From: Candidatus Pelethomonas sp.
Lineage (GTDB): Bacteria; Bacillota; Clostridia; Oscillospirales; Oscillospiraceae
NCBI GenBank assembly: GCA_048404665.1
Contig: DBFJQM010000002.1
Span: 18,845-82,844 of the forward strand
Direction of reading: 5' to 3'
Length of the DNA: 64,000 nucleotides
This document shows, piece after piece, positions 15,739 through 26,510 of the stretch; within the stretch, counting starts at the first letter, position 1; every line of letters begins with the position of its first letter. A program made the translations under genes and the position numbers. Below the pieces are notes generated by a model. It was given only the letters and a program-made list of their open reading frames with translations, searched no databases and had not been told where the DNA came from.

Positions 15739-17472
15739 TTACCCCAGGGACCAGGTCTGGCTCTCGGTTTGGAGCTGCACCATCCGGGCGAAGGCCCCGT
15801 TTGGGGCCATCAGCTCAGCCGGCGTACCCAGCTCGGCCACGGCGCCGTGGTCCAGCACCACGATCTGGTCGGCGTTCTCCACGGTGCGCATCCGGTGGGC
15901 GATGATGAGCACCGTCTTGTCCTTCACCAGCCGGGAAATGGCCTGCTGGATCTCGGTCTCGTTCTCGGCGTCCAGGGAGGCGGTGGCCTCGTCCAGCAGG
16001 ATGATGGGGGCGTCCTTTAAAAGCGCCCGGGCGATGGAGATGCGCTGACGTTCACCGCCGGAGAGAGTGGAGCCGTTTTCCCCGATCATGGTCTGATACC
16101 CCTGGGGGAGCTTCTGGATAAACTCCTCGCACATGGCCGCTTTCGCCGCCGCCACGACCTCGGCGTCGGTGGCGTCCTTGCGGCCCAGGCGGATGTTTTC
16201 CATGACCGTATTGTTGAACAGGGTCACGTCCTGGAACACGATGGAATAGGCGGTCAGCAGCTTTTCCGGGTCCACCGTGGACACATCCACGCCGCCGACG
16301 GTGATCCTGCCCCGCTCCACATCCCAGAACCGGGCGGCCAGCTTTGCGGCTGTGGACTTGCCCCCGCCGCTGGGACCGATCAGGGCGGTGACCTCGCCCT
16401 GCCGGGCGGTGAAGGAGACATCCTTCAGCACGGTCTCGCCGCTGTTATAGGCAAAGCCCACATGTTCAAAGGTGATGTCGTAGCCTTTCGGCGCAAACGC
16501 CGCCTCGCCGTCCTGCACCTTGCTGCCCCAGATCTCATTCATGCGGTCGATGTTCACCTGCAGGGAGTTCATGGCCGCCAGGTTTTGCAGGGAGAAGGAC
16601 ATAGGCTCGTAGAGCCGGGAGACCACCAGCAGGAACAGGAAGAAGGTGACAAGGGACAGCTCGCCGCTGATGAGGCGCATACTTCCCACCAGGGCCACCG
16701 AGGCTATGCCCAGCTTCAGGATCATCTGGGCCGGGACCACGAACATGGCCGCGCCCAACTCACTCTTGATCATTCGGCCTTCCAGCCCATCTATTTTCTT
16801 GTTCAAGCCGCCGAGATACGCCTGCTCCGCCTTGTTGCTTTTCAGGTCACGGATGGTTTCCAGGCACTCCTGCACACCGTCTGCAACGGCGATCAAGGCG
16901 GCGTTTTGCCTGCGGGTGAAATAGTTCTGCATCTTCTTGGAGAAGCCCACGATGACCAGCGCCACCGGCAGCACCCACAAGGCCGCAATCGCCATCTGCC
17001 AATCGCAGCACAGCAGGCCGGCCGCCACCAGGCAGGTGGAGAGGATGGAGCCATAGAACTGCGGGACATAGTGGGAGAACATCTGCTCGGTGGTGGACAC
17101 GTCCCCCATGATGGTGTTGGTCAGGTCCGCCAGGTCCTTTCTGCCGAAGAAGGAGAGGGGCAGCCGCCGCAGCTTCTCCGCCAGTCTGATGCGGCACGCG
17201 CCGGATTCCCGGTAGGTGGAGAAGTACGTGGCATTGTACTTCCAAAACTCCGTCAGGAGCACCAGGGCCAGGGCGGCGGCGATACCGACGCCGTAGAAGA
17301 CGCAGCTCCGAAGGACCGCGCCGCTGCTGAGAAAATCACTGACAAGCAGATAAAGAAGCCCCACCGGGAACATCAGCGCCAGATCCCCCACCGCGCAGGC
17401 AATGGTGGCCCTGACAAGCCCTTTTGCCCCTTCTTCGGAGAGGGCGAAGCGTTTCATCAATCGCTGCGTCAT
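15739..17472 (-). CDS. ABC transporter, fused permease/ATP-binding subunit (exporter type, second gene of the pair)
   Basis: ORF 15739..17520, trimmed to MTQRLMKRF (ATG 17472), which overlaps the upstream stop by ATGA. Walker A GPSGGGKST, signature LSGGERQR, Walker B IILLDEA. Confidence 0.9.
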   Translation of the reverse strand: MTQRLMKRFALSEEGAKGLVRATIACAVGDLALMFPVGLLYLLVSDFLSSGAVLRSCVFYGVGIAAALALVLLTEFWKYNATYFSTYRESGACRIRLAEKLRRLPLSFFGRKDLADLTNTIMGDVSTTEQMFSHYVPQFYGSILSTCLVAAGLLCCDWQMAIAALWVLPVALVIVGFSKKMQNYFTRRQNAALIAVADGVQECLETIRDLKSNKAEQAYLGGLNKKIDGLEGRMIKSELGAAMFVVPAQMILKLGIASVALVGSMRLISGELSLVTFFLFLLVVSRLYEPMSFSLQNLAAMNSLQVNIDRMNEIWGSKVQDGEAAFAPKGYDITFEHVGFAYNSGETVLKDVSFTARQGEVTALIGPSGGGKSTAAKLAARFWDVERGRITVGGVDVSTVDPEKLLTAYSIVFQDVTLFNNTVMENIRLGRKDATDAEVVAAAKAAMCEEFIQKLPQGYQTMIGENGSTLSGGERQRISIARALLKDAPIILLDEATASLDAENETEIQQAISRLVKDKTVLIIAHRMRTVENADQIVVLDHGAVAELGTPAELMAPNGAFARMVQLQTESQTWSLG

Positions 17473-19246
17473 TTTGCCGCACCTACCTTCCAGTTCACAG
17501 AGGTCTGATAGTCCTGCCACATCTGGGCGTAGAGTCCGCCCTGCGCCACGAGGGAATCGTGGGCGCCGCTCTCCTCCACACGGCCCTCCCGCAGCACGAA
17601 GATTCGGTCGGCGTTCCTGACTGTGGTGAGCCTGTGGGCGATCATAATAACGGTTTTCCCCTTGGAGAGCCGTTCAAAGGCCTGCTGCACCAGCGCCTCG
17701 TTTTCCGGGTCGGCAAAGGCGGTGGCCTCGTCCAGGATCAGGATAGGGGCGTTTTTCAGCATGACGCGGGCGATGGCGATGCGCTGCTGTTCCCCGCCGG
17801 AGAGATACACGCCCTTGGTGCCGATCACCGTGTCGATCCCCTGGGGCAGCTTGGCGATGATGTCGTCGCATTGGGCCTCATGCAGCGCCTGCTCCACCTC
17901 CTGCCGGGAGGCGTTGGGCCGGGACAGCCGCACATTTTCGAGAATAGAAGCCTTTAACAGCCGGCTGTCCTGAAAGACATAGGCCACGGTGTCCGCCAAT
18001 GTTTCCTTGGAGATGTCCTTCACATTGACGCCGCCGATGGTGATGGCCCCGCCGCTCACATCCCAGAACCGGGAGATCAGCCCGGCTGCGGTCGTTTTGC
18101 CGCCGCCGGAGGGGCCCACCAGGGCAACCGTCTCCCCTGCGCCTATCCGGATGCTTACGTCCCGGAGCGCGTCCCCCGCGGCGTTCTGATAGCGGAAGGT
18201 CACGTTTTCAAGCGTGACCGAATTGTCTGCCGGGACCTTGCCGCTGCGGGGTTCGGGCAGCGGCTCCACATCCAGAACGGAGTGGATGCGGGTTAGGGCG
18301 TCCGTCACGATCATGCCGTTTTCGCTCATATACATGACCTTGGTCATGGCGGTGGCGATAACGGGCGTAAAGATCACATAGAAAATGAAGTTCAGCAGCA
18401 CCGACTGCGGGATGGCCTCGCCTCCTGCCAGTATCAACGCCAGTACAATGAGGAACGCGAAGGCGCTGTTGAAAATACGGTGTAGGCCAGCATAGGCGGG
18501 CGGCACTTCTTGCAGTAGCTGATGCAGTATTTGTAGTAGTTGTCAATGGTGTCCTTGAACCGCTTGAAGGAGTGGACGGTCTGCCCAAAGGTCTTGACCA
18601 CCGGGACGCCCCGCACATACTCCACCGCCTCGTTGTTCATGTCCGCCAGGGCGTCCATGTAGTCCTTCATATCCTTCGCCATGCCGGGACCGGCCATTTG
18701 GAACATGGACGCAAAGCCCAGAGCGAAGGGCACAAGGCTCACCAGCCCGAACCGCCAGTCAAAGAGGAACAGCATGACCACCATGCAGACCGGCGTAGTG
18801 ATCGCTGCCGCCATGTCCGGGAGCTGGTGGGCCAGATAGGTCTCGGTGGCAGCGCTTGCGTCATTGACGATACGGCGGATCTTGCCGCTGCCCATCTCCC
18901 CGATGAAGCCCAGGGGAAGCTGGGCGATGTGGGCCATCAGTGCCTTGCGGATGTTCGCCGCAATGCGGAAGGCCGACAGGTGGGAACACATCAGGCCGCA
19001 GATGTAGACCAGGATGGACAGCACGGCAAATCCCACCGCCAGAGCGCCATTTTGAACCACATGGGTGGCCTGGGCATAGTTGGGAGCAGCTTCGAGGACT
19101 TCCCGGATGATGAAGAATAGGAACACAAAGGGGAACAGGGTCAGGACCGCGCTGACGGCGGACAGCAGCAGCGATAAATAGGTCAGATACCTGCGTCCCC
19201 CGGCGTAGCTTAAAAGCTGGGACAAATTCGACTGTTTTTGATCCAT
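17469..19246 (-). pseudogene. ABC transporter fused permease/ATP-binding subunit, interrupted by a frameshift (first gene of the pair)
   Basis: N-terminal TMD ORF 18434..19333 (real start MDQKQSNLSQLL, ATG 19246 behind GGAGGG). A second ORF 17469..18506 in another frame carries Walker A GPSGGGKTT, LSGGEQQR and ILILDEA. The 1778-nt span is not a multiple of 3. Confidence 0.7.
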
Positions 19247-19434
19247 TTGCAATACCCTCCTTGTAAAGCAGTAGGCGAATACAGAGGCCGGCGGGCTGGT
19301 GAGTGGATGTTCCAAGCCCGCCAGGCCCCTCATTCAAACAGATTTTCTGTGGAGAAAAGTCCAATGACGCTCTCCATGCTCACTTGGCCCCCTTGGCAAT
19401 GGCCTGGGCCATAGGCACCGCTTCCCTTAAAATT

Positions 19435-19452
19435 AGTTAGTTATAACTAACT
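19435..19452. promoter_or_regulatory. Palindromic operator AGTTAG-TTATAA-CTAACT (site 1)
   Basis: Perfect 18-bp palindrome about 190 nt upstream of the ABC exporter start. Confidence 0.5.
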
Positions 19453-19458
19453 CTCTTT

Positions 19459-19500
19459 GAGAAGATCGGCGCTCCCCCAGATGATGGGAGCGCCTTCTTC
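19459..19500 (-). terminator. Hairpin GGCGCTCCC-N9-GGGAGCGCC (possible terminator of the upstream 10-gene operon)
   Basis: 9-bp GC stem between operator sites 1 and 2, with weak T-rich flanks on both strands. Confidence 0.35.
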
Positions 19501-19528
19501 TGCATATGGGTGGTACAAGGCTCACAGT

Positions 19529-19548
19529 TAGTTAGTTTAAGCTAACTA
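19529..19548. promoter_or_regulatory. Palindromic operator tAGTTAG-TTTAAG-CTAACTa (site 2)
   Basis: Same half-sites as site 1, with an extra overlapping AGTTAG at 19526-19531. Confidence 0.5.
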
Positions 19549-19581
19549 CAATAGAGATCATAGCAGACCCGTGTCCACTTG

Positions 19582-20229
19582 TCAAGCAGATTTCCCACTA
19601 GCAGTCTCTTTTTTTGCCGCCGCGCAGCACAGCGGGGCCAGGGAGCCGCCCAGCACCGCCTGGTCAAAAACGGCAAAGCCATGGGCCGAGAGATACTCCG
19701 CAAACCCCGCGGCGCTCCACTCGTGGTATGTACGGAACCCCGCCAACTTCATGATACGCACCCGTACCCGGAAGCCCTTCCCCTCCCCGTGGACAAAGGT
19801 GGGTGCAAACAAAAATCCACCCGGTTTCAACACCCGGCGGATCTCCCCCAAAGCCTTGTCCGGGTCGGGTATGATGTGCAGGGCGTTGGCGATCACCACC
19901 GCGTCAAAGCTCTCTGGGGCATAGGGCAGGGCCGTAGCGTCCTGGACGGAAAAGTGGAGGCGGGCCGAGCAGTTCTTCTTTTTCGCCTGGGCAATCATGT
20001 TTGGGGAGAAGTCGGTGGCCTCCCACAGCCGAACTCGGCTGAAGAGTGGATAGGAGAGCTGCCCTGTGCCGCAGGCCAACTCCAGCACATCCATGTCCCG
20101 ACTCAGATGGGGGCGGATCCGGTCACAGATGTCCCGGTAGAACTTTGCCCCGCTTTTCTCCATCACCGGCCCGTAAAGTCTGGCGAACCGCTGCCAGAAT
20201 GCTTTATTGTCAGATTTTAATTCAGGCAT
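19582..20229 (-). CDS. Class I SAM-dependent methyltransferase
   Basis: 215-aa ORF with motif I VLELACGTG and post-I/II motifs. Confidence 0.85.
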   Translation of the reverse strand: MPELKSDNKAFWQRFARLYGPVMEKSGAKFYRDICDRIRPHLSRDMDVLELACGTGQLSYPLFSRVRLWEATDFSPNMIAQAKKKNCSARLHFSVQDATALPYAPESFDAVVIANALHIIPDPDKALGEIRRVLKPGGFLFAPTFVHGEGKGFRVRVRIMKLAGFRTYHEWSAAGFAEYLSAHGFAVFDQAVLGGSLAPLCCAAAKKETASGKSA

Positions 20230-24713: not shown

Positions 24714-25388
24714 TCATATGCGCTCGTCTCCCTTTTGCCGCTCCTGGTCCCACTTGGACCCCTTGCGGCAAACATAGAAATCGCATTGGTCCCCGCCGGA
24801 GGCCAGGGTCTGGGTCCGGTAGAGCCGGCCCCCTGTCCAGTCTGTAGACATGGTATCCACGGCGCACATATAGGGCACCAGATGGGGCCGCCCCTCCTGC
24901 TTCCCCAACGCGCACAGGCCGCACTGACGGTAGAGGATGGTGTACTCGTCCGCGTCCCGGCCCAGGATCACTTCAGTCTTCCAGTTGAAGGCCCCGCCTG
25001 GGGCGGCGTTGCCCCGGAGGGAGTTTTCCTGCCGCTTTTTCTGTCCTGCAAGGGTAAAAGCGCTCTTCCCCTTGGCCTGGAACGTTTTCTTCACCAGGGG
25101 AGCGTTCATGCTGGCGTCCATCATCCCGGCGAAGCGCGTCTCGCTCATGCGCCCCTCAGCCGCCTCGTAAACCGACAGCCACAGCATCCCGGCGGCCTGG
25201 CAGATTCGCAGGGAGTTTTCCCTCAGGGAGCCGATGTCCGGCGTCCGGCCGATCATCTGCCGGTAGGTTTCTTTCGTTTTCCGCTTCAAATCGGGAATGT
25301 CCCAGTCCGGTTCCGTCTCCCTCAGATACCCCAGCGCCGCCGGCGCCATAGCAAGCCATATCATCGTCTCGCAAACAGAACGTCTCAT
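24714..25388 (-). CDS. L-2-amino-thiazoline-4-carboxylic acid hydrolase-family protein
   Basis: 224 aa with the Cys-rich C-terminal pattern CGLCALG...PYMCAVD...TLASGGDQCDFYV, remembered as typical of that Pfam family. Confidence 0.65.
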   Translation of the reverse strand: MRRSVCETMIWLAMAPAALGYLRETEPDWDIPDLKRKTKETYRQMIGRTPDIGSLRENSLRICQAAGMLWLSVYEAAEGRMSETRFAGMMDASMNAPLVKKTFQAKGKSAFTLAGQKKRQENSLRGNAAPGGAFNWKTEVILGRDADEYTILYRQCGLCALGKQEGRPHLVPYMCAVDTMSTDWTGGRLYRTQTLASGGDQCDFYVCRKGSKWDQERQKGDERI

Positions 25389-26349: not shown

Positions 26350-26367
26350 AGTTAGTTGTTGCTAACC
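26350..26367. promoter_or_regulatory. Palindromic operator AGTTAG-TTGTTG-CTAACc (site 3)
   Basis: Same half-sites as 19435 and 19529. Lies 8-25 nt downstream of the putative -10 of the HMA operon. Confidence 0.5.
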
Positions 26368-26374
26368 ATAGGAT

Positions 26375-26402
26375 AGTCTACCACATTCCCCGCATTTGTC
26401 AA
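26375..26402 (-). promoter_or_regulatory. Putative promoter of the HMA-led operon
   Basis: Minus strand TTGACA, 16 nt, TAGACT. Confidence 0.45.
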
Positions 26403-26465: not shown

Positions 26466-26510
26466 AGAAAGGGAGCCCCGCCTGCGGCCGCAGGCGGGGC
26501 TCCCTTTCTT
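26466..26510. terminator. Intrinsic terminator downstream of rny
   Basis: GGGAGCCCCGCCTGC-ggcc-GCAGGCGGGGCTCCC flanked by AGAAA / TTTCTT. Confidence 0.7.

What the first reader, a model, noticed from the sequence alone, without database searches (positions are those of the whole stretch)
19435..19548. AGTTAG-N6-CTAACT palindrome occurs twice upstream of the ABC exporter and again at the HMA operon: a regulon without a visible regulator
Three copies of the same 6-6-6 palindrome occur in the window:
- AGTTAG-TTATAA-CTAACT (19435-19452)
- AGTTAG-TTTAAG-CTAACT (19530-19547)
- AGTTAG-TTGTTG-CTAACC (26350-26367)

AT-rich 18-mers of this kind are very unlikely to recur by chance in this GC-rich sequence. 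Two sites sit in the 335-nt gap upstream of the ABC exporter pair. They bracket a GC hairpin, and a 190-nt leader with a further hairpin (GGCGGGCT...AGCCCGCC) follows. The third overlaps the predicted transcription start of the HMA-led operon.

This implies one dimeric repressor, of TetR, MarR or ArsR-like geometry, controls 12 genes on both sides. No candidate regulator gene lies next to either site.
Basis: seen in the sequence. Interest (0 to 1): 0.6.

Follow-up and report, generated by a model that had tools for sequence, protein, structure and literature searches.

The report
Iron-repressor boxes on two accessory operons
The three palindromes are real binding sites for a small DtxR/MntR-type metal-sensing repressor encoded elsewhere in the genome. 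It very probably switches off these two operons, together with the ferrous-iron uptake genes, when iron is plentiful; this is an ordinary kind of switch that I could not find described for these gut Clostridia.

Summary
Observation confirmed. The three 18-mers are exactly where stated. RGTTAG-N6-CTAACY occurs only 7 times in the 2.44-Mb genome (0 for the reversed control), always in 5' regions.

Both operons lie on the minus strand. Two boxes sit 7-9 nt downstream of the -10 of the two best sigma-70 promoters in the region. The third (19435-19452) lies inside a weaker promoter just behind a hairpin.

The other four copies precede feoA (two), feoB and a ZIP transporter, so this is a metal regulon. 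The regulator is visible but unlinked: the genome's only DtxR/MntR-family protein (~123 aa, contig C1).

In relatives and across Clostridia its homologues sit divergently from feoA with these boxes between them. The box has the TTAG-N6-CTAA geometry of the one-dimer IdeR site. The TetR/MarR/ArsR guess is therefore not supported.

In relatives the same box precedes flavodoxin and a FecCD permease, which points to iron. The "ABC exporter" pair is most like the siderophore importers IrtAB/YbtPQ.

This scan has reached the same reading on at least 38 other genomes. Specific here are the wiring of an accessory HMA/ABC block into the regulon and an explanation for boxes that follow terminators.

The parts
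19530..19547 (.). Operator O1 (AGTTAG-TTTAAG-CTAACT). It starts 9 nt downstream of the -10 of promoter P1, so it covers roughly +4 to +21.
19557..19585 (-). Promoter P1 for the ABC genes: TTGACA-17-TATGAT with TG extension, 11 of 12 matches, the best in the region. Its -35 overlaps the stop codon of the last HMA-operon gene.
19468..19494 (-). GC hairpin GGCGCTCCC...GGGAGCGCC between O1 and O2. It is terminator-like with a poor U tract on the minus strand. It probably ends the HMA operon and attenuates P1 transcripts.
   Evidence: the equivalent canonical terminator in G012/G019 is
19435..19452 (.). Operator O2 (AGTTAG-TTATAA-CTAACT). This is the box conserved upstream of the orthologous ABC gene in G012 and G019.
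19434..19463 (-). Candidate promoter P2: TTCTCA (19463-19458), 18-nt spacer, TAACTA (19439-19434). O2 fills the spacer and its right half-site supplies the -10. This is inferred.
   Evidence: Sequence. The same design holds at 21 of 27 feoB-proximal boxes in other Clostridia.
19290..19322 (-). Leader hairpin GGCGGGCT...AGCCCGCC, with no U tract and no Rfam match. Function unknown.
26350..26367 (.). Operator of the HMA-led operon (AGTTAG-TTGTTG-CTAACC). It starts 7 nt downstream of the -10, so it covers roughly +1 to +19.
26375..26402 (-). Promoter of the HMA-led operon: TTGACA-16-TAGACT with TG extension. It is near-identical in layout to the ZIP promoter on contig C51.
19582..26324 (-). Regulated operon: HMA protein, SAM methyltransferase, ATC_hydrolase-family protein, ApbA-like reductase, CPBP/CAAX protease, DUF6796, two unknown membrane proteins, BAAT_C hydrolase and a second methyltransferase.
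15739..19246 (-). Regulated pair of exporter-fold ABC half-transporters, closest to IrtA/YbtP and YbtQ. The first gene (17469-19246) is frameshifted near 18434-18506.

Best explanation
The three palindromes are operators for a homodimeric, two-domain DtxR/MntR-family metalloregulator of about 123 aa. It is the only family member in this genome and is encoded unlinked at G000 contig C1:12668-13039. When loaded with metal, most likely Fe(II), one dimer binds each TTAG-N6-CTAA box. At the HMA promoter and at P1 of the ABC genes the box lies directly downstream of the -10, over the transcription start, so bound repressor blocks initiation or escape. At O2 the box fills the spacer of a second, weaker promoter and overlaps its -10. 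The HMA-led operon and the IrtAB/YbtPQ-like ABC pair would thus be switched on together with feoA-feoA, feoB and a ZIP transporter when the metal runs short. Shown here: the sites, their non-random occurrence, their promoter positions, their conservation, and their co-localisation with the regulator family. Inferred: which protein binds, which metal is sensed, repression rather than activation, and promoter P2.
For: (1) There are seven boxes in 2.44 Mb against 0 for the reversed control, all in 5' regions: two before feoA, one before feoB, one before ZIP, one before the HMA operon and two before the ABC pair.

(2) The boxes sit 7, 9, 7 and 14 nt after the -10 of consensus-like promoters at the HMA, ABC-P1, ZIP and feoA units.

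(3) The box is present in 35 of 41 genomes of the order, with controls at 0-2 per genome. In at least 12 of these genomes a box lies within about 250 bp of a DtxR-like gene, typically in the divergent feoA/regulator spacer.

(4) In 80 loci across Clostridia chosen only for encoding the regulator, the exact core occurs 38 times against 1 for the control in 594 kb. The boxes fall in the feoA/regulator spacer wherever the two genes are divergent.

(5) G000 has one DtxR-family gene. G003, G008 and G001 also have a single copy, and there it is box-adjacent.

(6) The recognition helix and E12, H78, D98, C100, E103 and H104 are identical in 21 box-adjacent and 68 non-adjacent homologues, the latter including G000's.

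(7) TTAG-N6-CTAA equals the experimentally shown one-dimer IdeR site TTAGG-N4-CCTAA. IdeR's base-contacting Ser37 and Pro39 are conserved. Gln43, which reads the inner C, is replaced, matching the variable inner positions here.

(8) Iron is indicated in four ways. The invariant Cys sits at the IdeR Cys102 position, where MntR has Glu. In relatives the box precedes flavodoxin, a FecCD permease and feoAB. The ABC pair is most similar to IrtA/YbtP/YbtQ. The only Fur-family gene sits next to rubrerythrin and so looks like PerR.
Against: The G000 regulator has no box of its own. It is only 52-56% identical to the feo-adjacent regulators of the same genus, while FeoB is 83-88% identical, so it may be a different lineage. 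The genome is 94.7% complete, so a second regulator could be unassembled. The metal is inferred. The protein scores best, though below cut-off, against the MntR equivalog models, and position 9 is Asn rather than Met. ZIP and HMA proteins are not iron-specific. In Roseburia intestinalis, feoB rose 1.8-fold in low iron but 3.8-fold in high iron (PMC4659462). Regulator presence does not discriminate: it was found in 38 of 41 genomes, including those without an exact box.
Confidence: 0.8

Rival explanations
1. The architecture is as described, but the repressor senses Mn(II), or is a broad divalent-metal sensor, rather than Fe(II). The regulon would then be a manganese or general metal-starvation response.
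For: The best family scores are to the MntR equivalog models and to E. coli MntR (2h09). The protein has the two-domain MntR architecture without an SH3 domain. ZIP and HMA proteins are not iron-specific. The IdeR ancillary-site ligands are absent.
Against: The invariant Cys sits at the IdeR Cys102 position, where MntR proteins have Glu. The core targets are feoAB. In relatives flavodoxin and FecCD lie behind the box. The ABC pair is IrtAB/YbtPQ-like. The scores are below the MntR equivalog cut-offs (87.9 against 153).
Confidence: 0.12
2. One reading: a TetR-, MarR- or ArsR-type repressor binds the boxes, and the proximity to DtxR-like genes in relatives is coincidental. A Fur-family protein is a variant of the same idea.
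For: A 6-6-6 palindrome is compatible with many dimeric wHTH or HTH regulators. The G000 DtxR-like gene is not adjacent to any box. A MarR gene (C36) and one Fur-family gene (C78) exist in the genome.
Against: No such regulator is consistently linked to the box. The DtxR-like gene is the neighbour in many independent lineages. The half-site and spacing match the IdeR one-dimer site. The Fur-family gene is paired with rubrerythrin, which is the PerR context, and the box bears no resemblance to AT-rich 7-1-7 Fur-family boxes (that comparison rests on my own knowledge). The MarR gene sits beside its own ABC genes.
Confidence: 0.04
3. The boxes in this window are partly relics. The ABC operon is decaying (frameshifted first gene), and O1/P1 is a lineage-specific accident, so regulation of the ABC pair is no longer functional.
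For: There is a frameshift in 17469-19246. The intergenic DNA 19250-19600 has no counterpart in 48 other species of the genus. The HMA/ABC block is rare: MT1 was found in 3 of 48 species.
Against: All three boxes are perfect or near-perfect and are the top-scoring ones of the genome. P1 matches 11 of 12 consensus positions. The frameshift sits beside a T run in a metagenome-type assembly and may be an assembly error. The orthologue in G019 is intact.
Confidence: 0.04

Closest known systems
IdeR/DtxR iron box of Actinobacteria, in particular the one-dimer 'half binding site' TTAGG-N4-CCTAA of Saccharopolyspora erythraea IdeR (PMC8464063)
   Same: Same TTAG-N6-CTAA register and dyad. One wHTH subunit binds per TTAG/CTAA element. 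Ser and Pro of the recognition helix are conserved. The Cys-x-x-Glu-His metal ligands are conserved. The targets are iron-uptake genes, and the boxes overlap promoters.
   Different: There is no 19-bp double-dimer box. The conserved flank is an outer G (GTTAG) instead of an inner G (TTAGG). IdeR Gln43 is replaced by Val/Ile/Arg. The regulator lacks the SH3-like third domain and the ancillary metal site. The organisms are Clostridia, not Actinobacteria.
MntR of Bacillus subtilis and E. coli (two-domain DtxR-family Mn sensors; PDB 2h09, 1on1)
   Same: Same two-domain size and architecture. These are the best sequence matches among solved structures and NCBIfam models.
   Different: Scores are well below the equivalog cut-offs. 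There is an invariant Cys where MntR has Glu99. The regulon consists of feoAB, siderophore-type transporters and flavodoxin rather than mntH/mntABC. The operator sequence is unrelated to the MntR boxes as I recall them.
Fur-repressed feoAB and siderophore regulons of Proteobacteria and Bacilli
   Same: Same logic: a metal-loaded dimer sits on promoters of iron-uptake genes and releases them under starvation. Accessory uptake islands are wired in through copies of the box.
   Different: The protein family and box are unrelated. The only Fur-family gene here looks like PerR.
IrtAB (Mycobacterium) and YbtPQ (Yersinia, E. coli): exporter-fold ABC importers of iron-siderophores
   Same: The TMD of the first ABC gene matches IrtA (9e-23) and YbtP (2e-21) far better than any exporter (next is CydD at 1e-7). 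The second gene's best half-transporter match is YbtQ (4e-86). Both known systems are iron-regulated.
   Different: There is no siderophore-interaction domain as in IrtA. The substrate is unknown. No NRPS/PKS siderophore genes are nearby. Import direction is inferred only from similarity.

Membership tests
DtxR/IdeR/MntR family metalloregulator (protein at G000 C1:12668-13039) | N-terminal winged-helix DNA-binding domain (Pfam PF01325) | tested here: met
   45.4 and 44.4 bits against a cut-off of 26
DtxR/IdeR/MntR family metalloregulator (protein at G000 C1:12668-13039) | Metal-binding and dimerisation domain (Pfam PF02742) | tested here: met
   54.1 and 52.9 bits against a cut-off of 27
DtxR/IdeR proper (iron sensors of Actinobacteria) | C-terminal SH3-like third domain and ancillary metal site (IdeR H79, E83, H98 plus SH3 ligands) | tested here: not met
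   The protein is only about 123 aa. E83 and H98 equivalents are Ser and Ala. NCBIfam DtxR equivalog scores 42 bits against a cut-off of 290.
DtxR/IdeR proper (iron sensors of Actinobacteria) | Primary site ligands Met10, Cys102, Glu105, His106 | tested here: inconclusive
   Cys100, Glu103 and His104 are invariant in 89 homologues. The Met10 position is Asn in most, and Asp or Met in some.
MntR (Mn sensor) equivalogs | Score above the NCBIfam equivalog cut-off, and Glu at the Bsu Glu99 position | tested here: not met
   87.9 against 153 bits and 65.5 against 138 bits. Cys replaces the Glu.
IdeR-type one-dimer operator | Inverted TTAG/CTAA elements separated by 6 bp (TTAGG-N4-CCTAA) | tested here: met
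   All 7 boxes of G000 and the 82 distinct boxes collected from the other genomes (selected for this core, so true by construction) read GTTAG-N6-CTAAC. The IdeR site is taken from PMC8464063.
IdeR/DtxR 19-bp iron box | Four overlapping CCTAA repeats that bind two dimers (TTAGGTTAGSCTAACCTAA) | tested here: not met
   There is no second register. Inner and outer flanks are only A/T-biased in the 82-site matrix.
Binding of this protein to these boxes | Metal-dependent protein-DNA complex | not testable with these tools
   This needs EMSA, footprinting or DAP-seq.
IrtAB/YbtPQ-type siderophore importers (the ABC pair) | Exporter-fold heterodimer with TMDs closer to IrtA/YbtP/YbtQ than to exporters | tested here: met
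IrtAB/YbtPQ-type siderophore importers (the ABC pair) | Import of a metal chelate | not testable with these tools
   This needs a transport assay or a growth phenotype.

The most novel reading that the evidence does not exclude
The HMA-led operon and the IrtAB/YbtPQ-like ABC pair together form an iron-starvation-induced accessory system for taking up and chemically processing a foreign metal chelate. One possibility is opening of thiazoline rings: an ATC_hydrolase-family gene recurs behind the same box in an unrelated locus of another species. The methyltransferases, reductase and hydrolases would be processing enzymes and the HMA protein the metal acceptor. That would be an unrecognised route of xenosiderophore use in gut Oscillospirales.
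Probability: 0.1. Interest if true: 0.7.

Novelty: new member of a known kind. Interest (0 to 1): 0.35.

Why it matters
Iron control in the abundant, mostly uncultured gut Clostridia is usually assumed to run through Fur. These data indicate instead a small DtxR/MntR-type repressor with an IdeR-like one-dimer box across Oscillospirales and Lachnospirales.

Knowing the box lets iron-starvation regulons be read directly from metagenome-assembled genomes. In this genome it flags a rare accessory block as iron-regulated: an HMA protein, methyltransferases, an ATC_hydrolase-family enzyme and an IrtAB/YbtPQ-like transporter. That gives a concrete functional context to about 12 genes of unknown role.

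The mechanism itself is conventional, and the scan has already met it on many genomes, so the added value here is local annotation plus the promoter-design point.

Tried and rejected
- TetR/MarR/ArsR-type regulator: rejected, because no such gene is linked to the box in any lineage examined.
- Fur-family regulator: rejected. The only copy sits beside rubrerythrin, which is the PerR context.
- Dispersed repeat or mobile element: rejected. There are 7 copies, all in 5' regions.
- Riboswitch or known RNA in the 335-nt gap: no Rfam family matched even at E<=1. The only hit was a spurious miRNA model at 22 bits. The strong fold (z = -5.3) is largely explained by the palindromes and the two GC hairpins.
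- Iron-regulated small RNA running from P1 to the hairpin: considered, but the segment has no counterpart in 48 other species of the genus.
- Autoregulatory box at the G000 regulator gene: none found.
- Phyletic co-occurrence of box and regulator: uninformative, because both are nearly universal.
- Extra weak sites by weight matrix: none above the control level. The matrix was trained on exact cores, so it is biased against degenerate sites.
- Literature: four full-text searches found no description of this box or regulon in Clostridia.
- Alignment of the ABC leader with G012 and G019: only the box, the region near the RBS and a preceding terminator are comparable.

Full report
**1. Observation**

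The three 18-mers are in the sequence at the stated coordinates:
- 19435-19452: AGTTAGTTATAACTAACT
- 19530-19547: AGTTAGTTTAAGCTAACT
- 26350-26367: AGTTAGTTGTTGCTAACC

With up to two mismatches the window gives 4 matches, one of them a 4-nt offset of the first site. Dinucleotide shuffles give a mean of 0.47.

In the window's own assembly (G000: 2.44 Mb, 81 contigs, 64% GC, 94.7% complete) RGTTAG-N6-CTAACY occurs 7 times. The reversed control occurs 0 times. A weight matrix trained only on 82 sites from other genomes ranks the three window sites first, second and third in the genome. No further site rises above the control level.

**2. Anatomy in the window**

Both gene sets are on the minus strand.

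The two best sigma-70-like promoters found between 19000 and 27000 are both on the minus strand:
- 26402-26375: TTGACA-16-TAGACT, TG-extended
- 19585-19557: TTGACA-17-TATGAT, TG-extended, 11 of 12 matches

The 26350-26367 box begins 7 nt after the first -10. The 19530-19547 box (O1) begins 9 nt after the second. Both boxes therefore cover the predicted start site and the first 20 or so transcribed bases, which is a repressor position.

P1 is wedged between the stop codon of the last HMA-operon gene (19582) and a GC hairpin (19468-19494).

The remaining box (O2, 19435-19452) follows that hairpin. It is the one conserved upstream of the orthologous ABC gene in two other species of the genus (G012 and G019). 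There a canonical terminator (GGGGGTCTAAAACCCC-TTTCATTTT) immediately precedes it.

The rest of the 335-nt gap contains one more hairpin (19290-19322) and no Rfam family. Its strong predicted fold (z = -5.3) is largely the palindromes and hairpins themselves.

**3. The rest of the regulon**

The four other boxes in G000 lie as follows:
- two, 35 bp apart, between a TTGACA-17-TAAACT promoter and feoA
- one just upstream of feoB
- one 7 nt after a TTGACA-16-TAGACT promoter of a ZupT-type ZIP transporter, at the end of contig C51

This is a metal-uptake regulon.

In three species of the genus that carry the HMA/methyltransferase cluster, the ZIP gene is part of that cluster. The ZIP and HMA promoters of G000 look like copies of one another.

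**4. The regulator**

G000 has one DtxR/MntR-family gene (C1:12668-13039, about 123 aa, with both Pfam domains) and one Fur-family gene. The only other weak hit is a MarR protein. The Fur-family gene lies directly upstream of a rubrerythrin gene, which is the usual PerR arrangement.

Comparative evidence points to the DtxR-like protein:
- The box is found in 35 of 41 genomes sampled across the order, with controls at 0-2 per genome.
- In at least 12 of these genomes a box lies within about 250 bp of a DtxR-like gene. The usual place is the spacer between that gene and a divergent feoA.
- I fetched 80 loci from diverse Clostridia solely because they encode a homologue of the regulator. In their 594 kb the exact core GTTAG-N6-CTAAC occurs 38 times against once for the control. 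It lies in the feoA/regulator spacer wherever that arrangement exists.
- Relatives G003, G008 and G001 have a single family member, and it is box-adjacent.
- G011, the closest relative (94% identical regulator), shares G000's unlinked arrangement.

The G000 protein is only 52-56% identical to the feo-adjacent regulators of its genus. However, across 89 homologues (21 with a box within 350 bp upstream, 68 without) two features are the same in both groups:
- the recognition helix (S/K)K(P/S)SVS(V/I)AMK
- the candidate ligands E12, H78, D98, C100, E103 and H104

**5. How the box is read**

Each IdeR subunit binds one CCTAA element. One IdeR dimer was shown to bind a 14-bp half binding site, TTAGG-N4-CCTAA (PMC8464063). 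That is TTAG-N6-CTAA, the same register as GTTAG-N6-CTAAC.

IdeR Ser37 and Pro39 contact the T of the repeat and are conserved here. Gln43 hydrogen-bonds the first C of CCTAA and is Val/Ile/Arg here. This fits the loss of conservation at the inner positions and the gain of an outer G.

One dimer per box is therefore the expected stoichiometry.

**6. Which metal**

Arguments for iron:
- An invariant Cys sits at the IdeR/DtxR Cys102 position, where Mn-sensing MntR has Glu.
- feoAB is the universal core target.
- In relatives the same box precedes a flavodoxin gene (with DUF3793), a FecCD permease, further exporter-fold ABC pairs, ZIP and another ATC_hydrolase-family gene.
- The ABC pair of the window resembles the siderophore importers. 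The TMD of the first gene matches IrtA at 9e-23 and YbtP at 2e-21, with the next hit (CydD) at 1e-7. The second gene's best half-transporter hit is YbtQ at 4e-86.

Arguments against certainty:
- The best, though sub-threshold, family scores are to MntR models.
- The Met10 position is Asn.
- The only experiment I found on a related organism is ambiguous. Roseburia intestinalis feoB rose 1.8-fold in low iron but 3.8-fold in high iron (PMC4659462).

**7. Two promoter designs**

Earlier notes of this scan flagged boxes placed oddly just after a terminator inside feo operons. I oriented the feoB-proximal box of 27 loci by feoB and scored -35 likeness at every offset.

- There is a peak 10-12 nt upstream of the box.
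- At least 4 of 6 matches to TTGACA occur in 21 of 27 loci, at a spacer of 16-18 nt from the hexamer TAAYNN formed by the right half-site.
- At control offsets the figure is 2 of 27. At feoA-proximal boxes it is 6 of 24.

These boxes therefore sit inside an internal promoter whose -10 is the half-site itself. O2 of the window fits this design: hairpin, then TTCTCA (19463-19458), an 18-nt spacer and TAACTA (19439-19434).

My reading is that the ABC genes have an ancestral box-in-spacer promoter (P2) plus a lineage-specific strong promoter with a downstream box (P1/O1). The 19250-19600 segment has no counterpart in 48 other species of the genus. P2 is inferred, not shown.

**8. Accessory nature**

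- The first methyltransferase of the HMA operon has orthologues in only 3 of 48 other species of the genus.
- In G011, synteny with the neighbouring RNase Y gene stops at window position 26466, just outside the HMA promoter.
- The first ABC gene is frameshifted at 18434-18506, beside a T run. Its G019 orthologue is intact. I could not tell a real pseudogene from an assembly error.

**9. Comparison, novelty and limits**

This is an IdeR-like one-dimer operator read by a short MntR-like protein in Clostridia. It is a new member of a known kind.

Four full-text searches found no description of it. I cannot exclude curated regulon databases that the library does not hold.

This scan has already reached the same reading on at least 38 other genomes. 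I reached the DtxR reading independently. I then checked the IdeR half-site lead from those notes in the paper itself.

Noticed in passing
L011-L132 (feoA-feoB spacers); G000 C54:17934-17951; window 19434-19463: Boxes that follow a terminator and precede feoB lie inside an internal promoter. A -35-like hexamer sits 16-18 nt upstream of TAAYNN, which is the right half-site itself (21 of 27 loci against 2 of 27 at control offsets). This accounts for the 'odd third site' noted by earlier agents.
   Followed up: yes
window 17469-19246 (frameshift near 18434-18506): The first ABC gene is split into a TMD frame and an NBD frame beside a T run. The orthologue in G019 (L052:3227-1458) is in one frame. 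Real pseudogene versus assembly error is undecided.
   Followed up: partly
window 15739-19246: The 'ABC exporter' pair is most similar to the exporter-fold siderophore importers IrtA/YbtP and YbtQ, not to drug exporters.
   Followed up: yes
window 24714-25388; L138:4387-5043 (G022): An ATC_hydrolase-family gene (thiazoline-ring hydrolase family) recurs directly behind the same box in an unrelated locus of another species. The family may therefore be a genuine member of the iron regulon.
   Followed up: partly
L019:1501-2960 (G019); L147 (G022); L149 (G001): The box is followed by flavodoxin and/or DUF3793, and in G019 by flavodoxin, then DUF3793, then the DtxR-like gene. DUF3793 is thus consistently iron-regulon-linked.
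   Followed up: partly
G000 C78:25552-26590: The genome's only Fur-family gene lies immediately upstream of a rubrerythrin gene with an N-terminal rubredoxin-like domain. This suggests PerR rather than an iron-uptake Fur.
   Followed up: partly
window 26466; G011 C65 (L135): Synteny with the closest relative breaks just outside the HMA promoter. In G011 the DNA beyond rny corresponds to G000 contig C75, so the HMA/ABC block is an accessory insertion or rearrangement.
   Followed up: partly
G000 C1:11638-13039: The unlinked regulator gene follows a sulfite/nitrite-reductase-like 4Fe-4S gene and has its own TG-extended promoter (TTGCCA-17-TATCCT) followed by a short GTATC...GATAC inverted repeat, but no box.
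   Followed up: no
L126 (Bullifex porci NM-380-WT-3C1); L056, L058, L075 (records titled Odoribacter, Alloprevotella, Bacteroides): Close homologues of the regulator turn up in records titled as a spirochaete and as Bacteroidota MAGs, and in Bullifex porci (L126) and the Bacteroides-titled record (L075) the full feo/box arrangement too. This could be horizontal transfer or mis-binned contigs.
   Followed up: no
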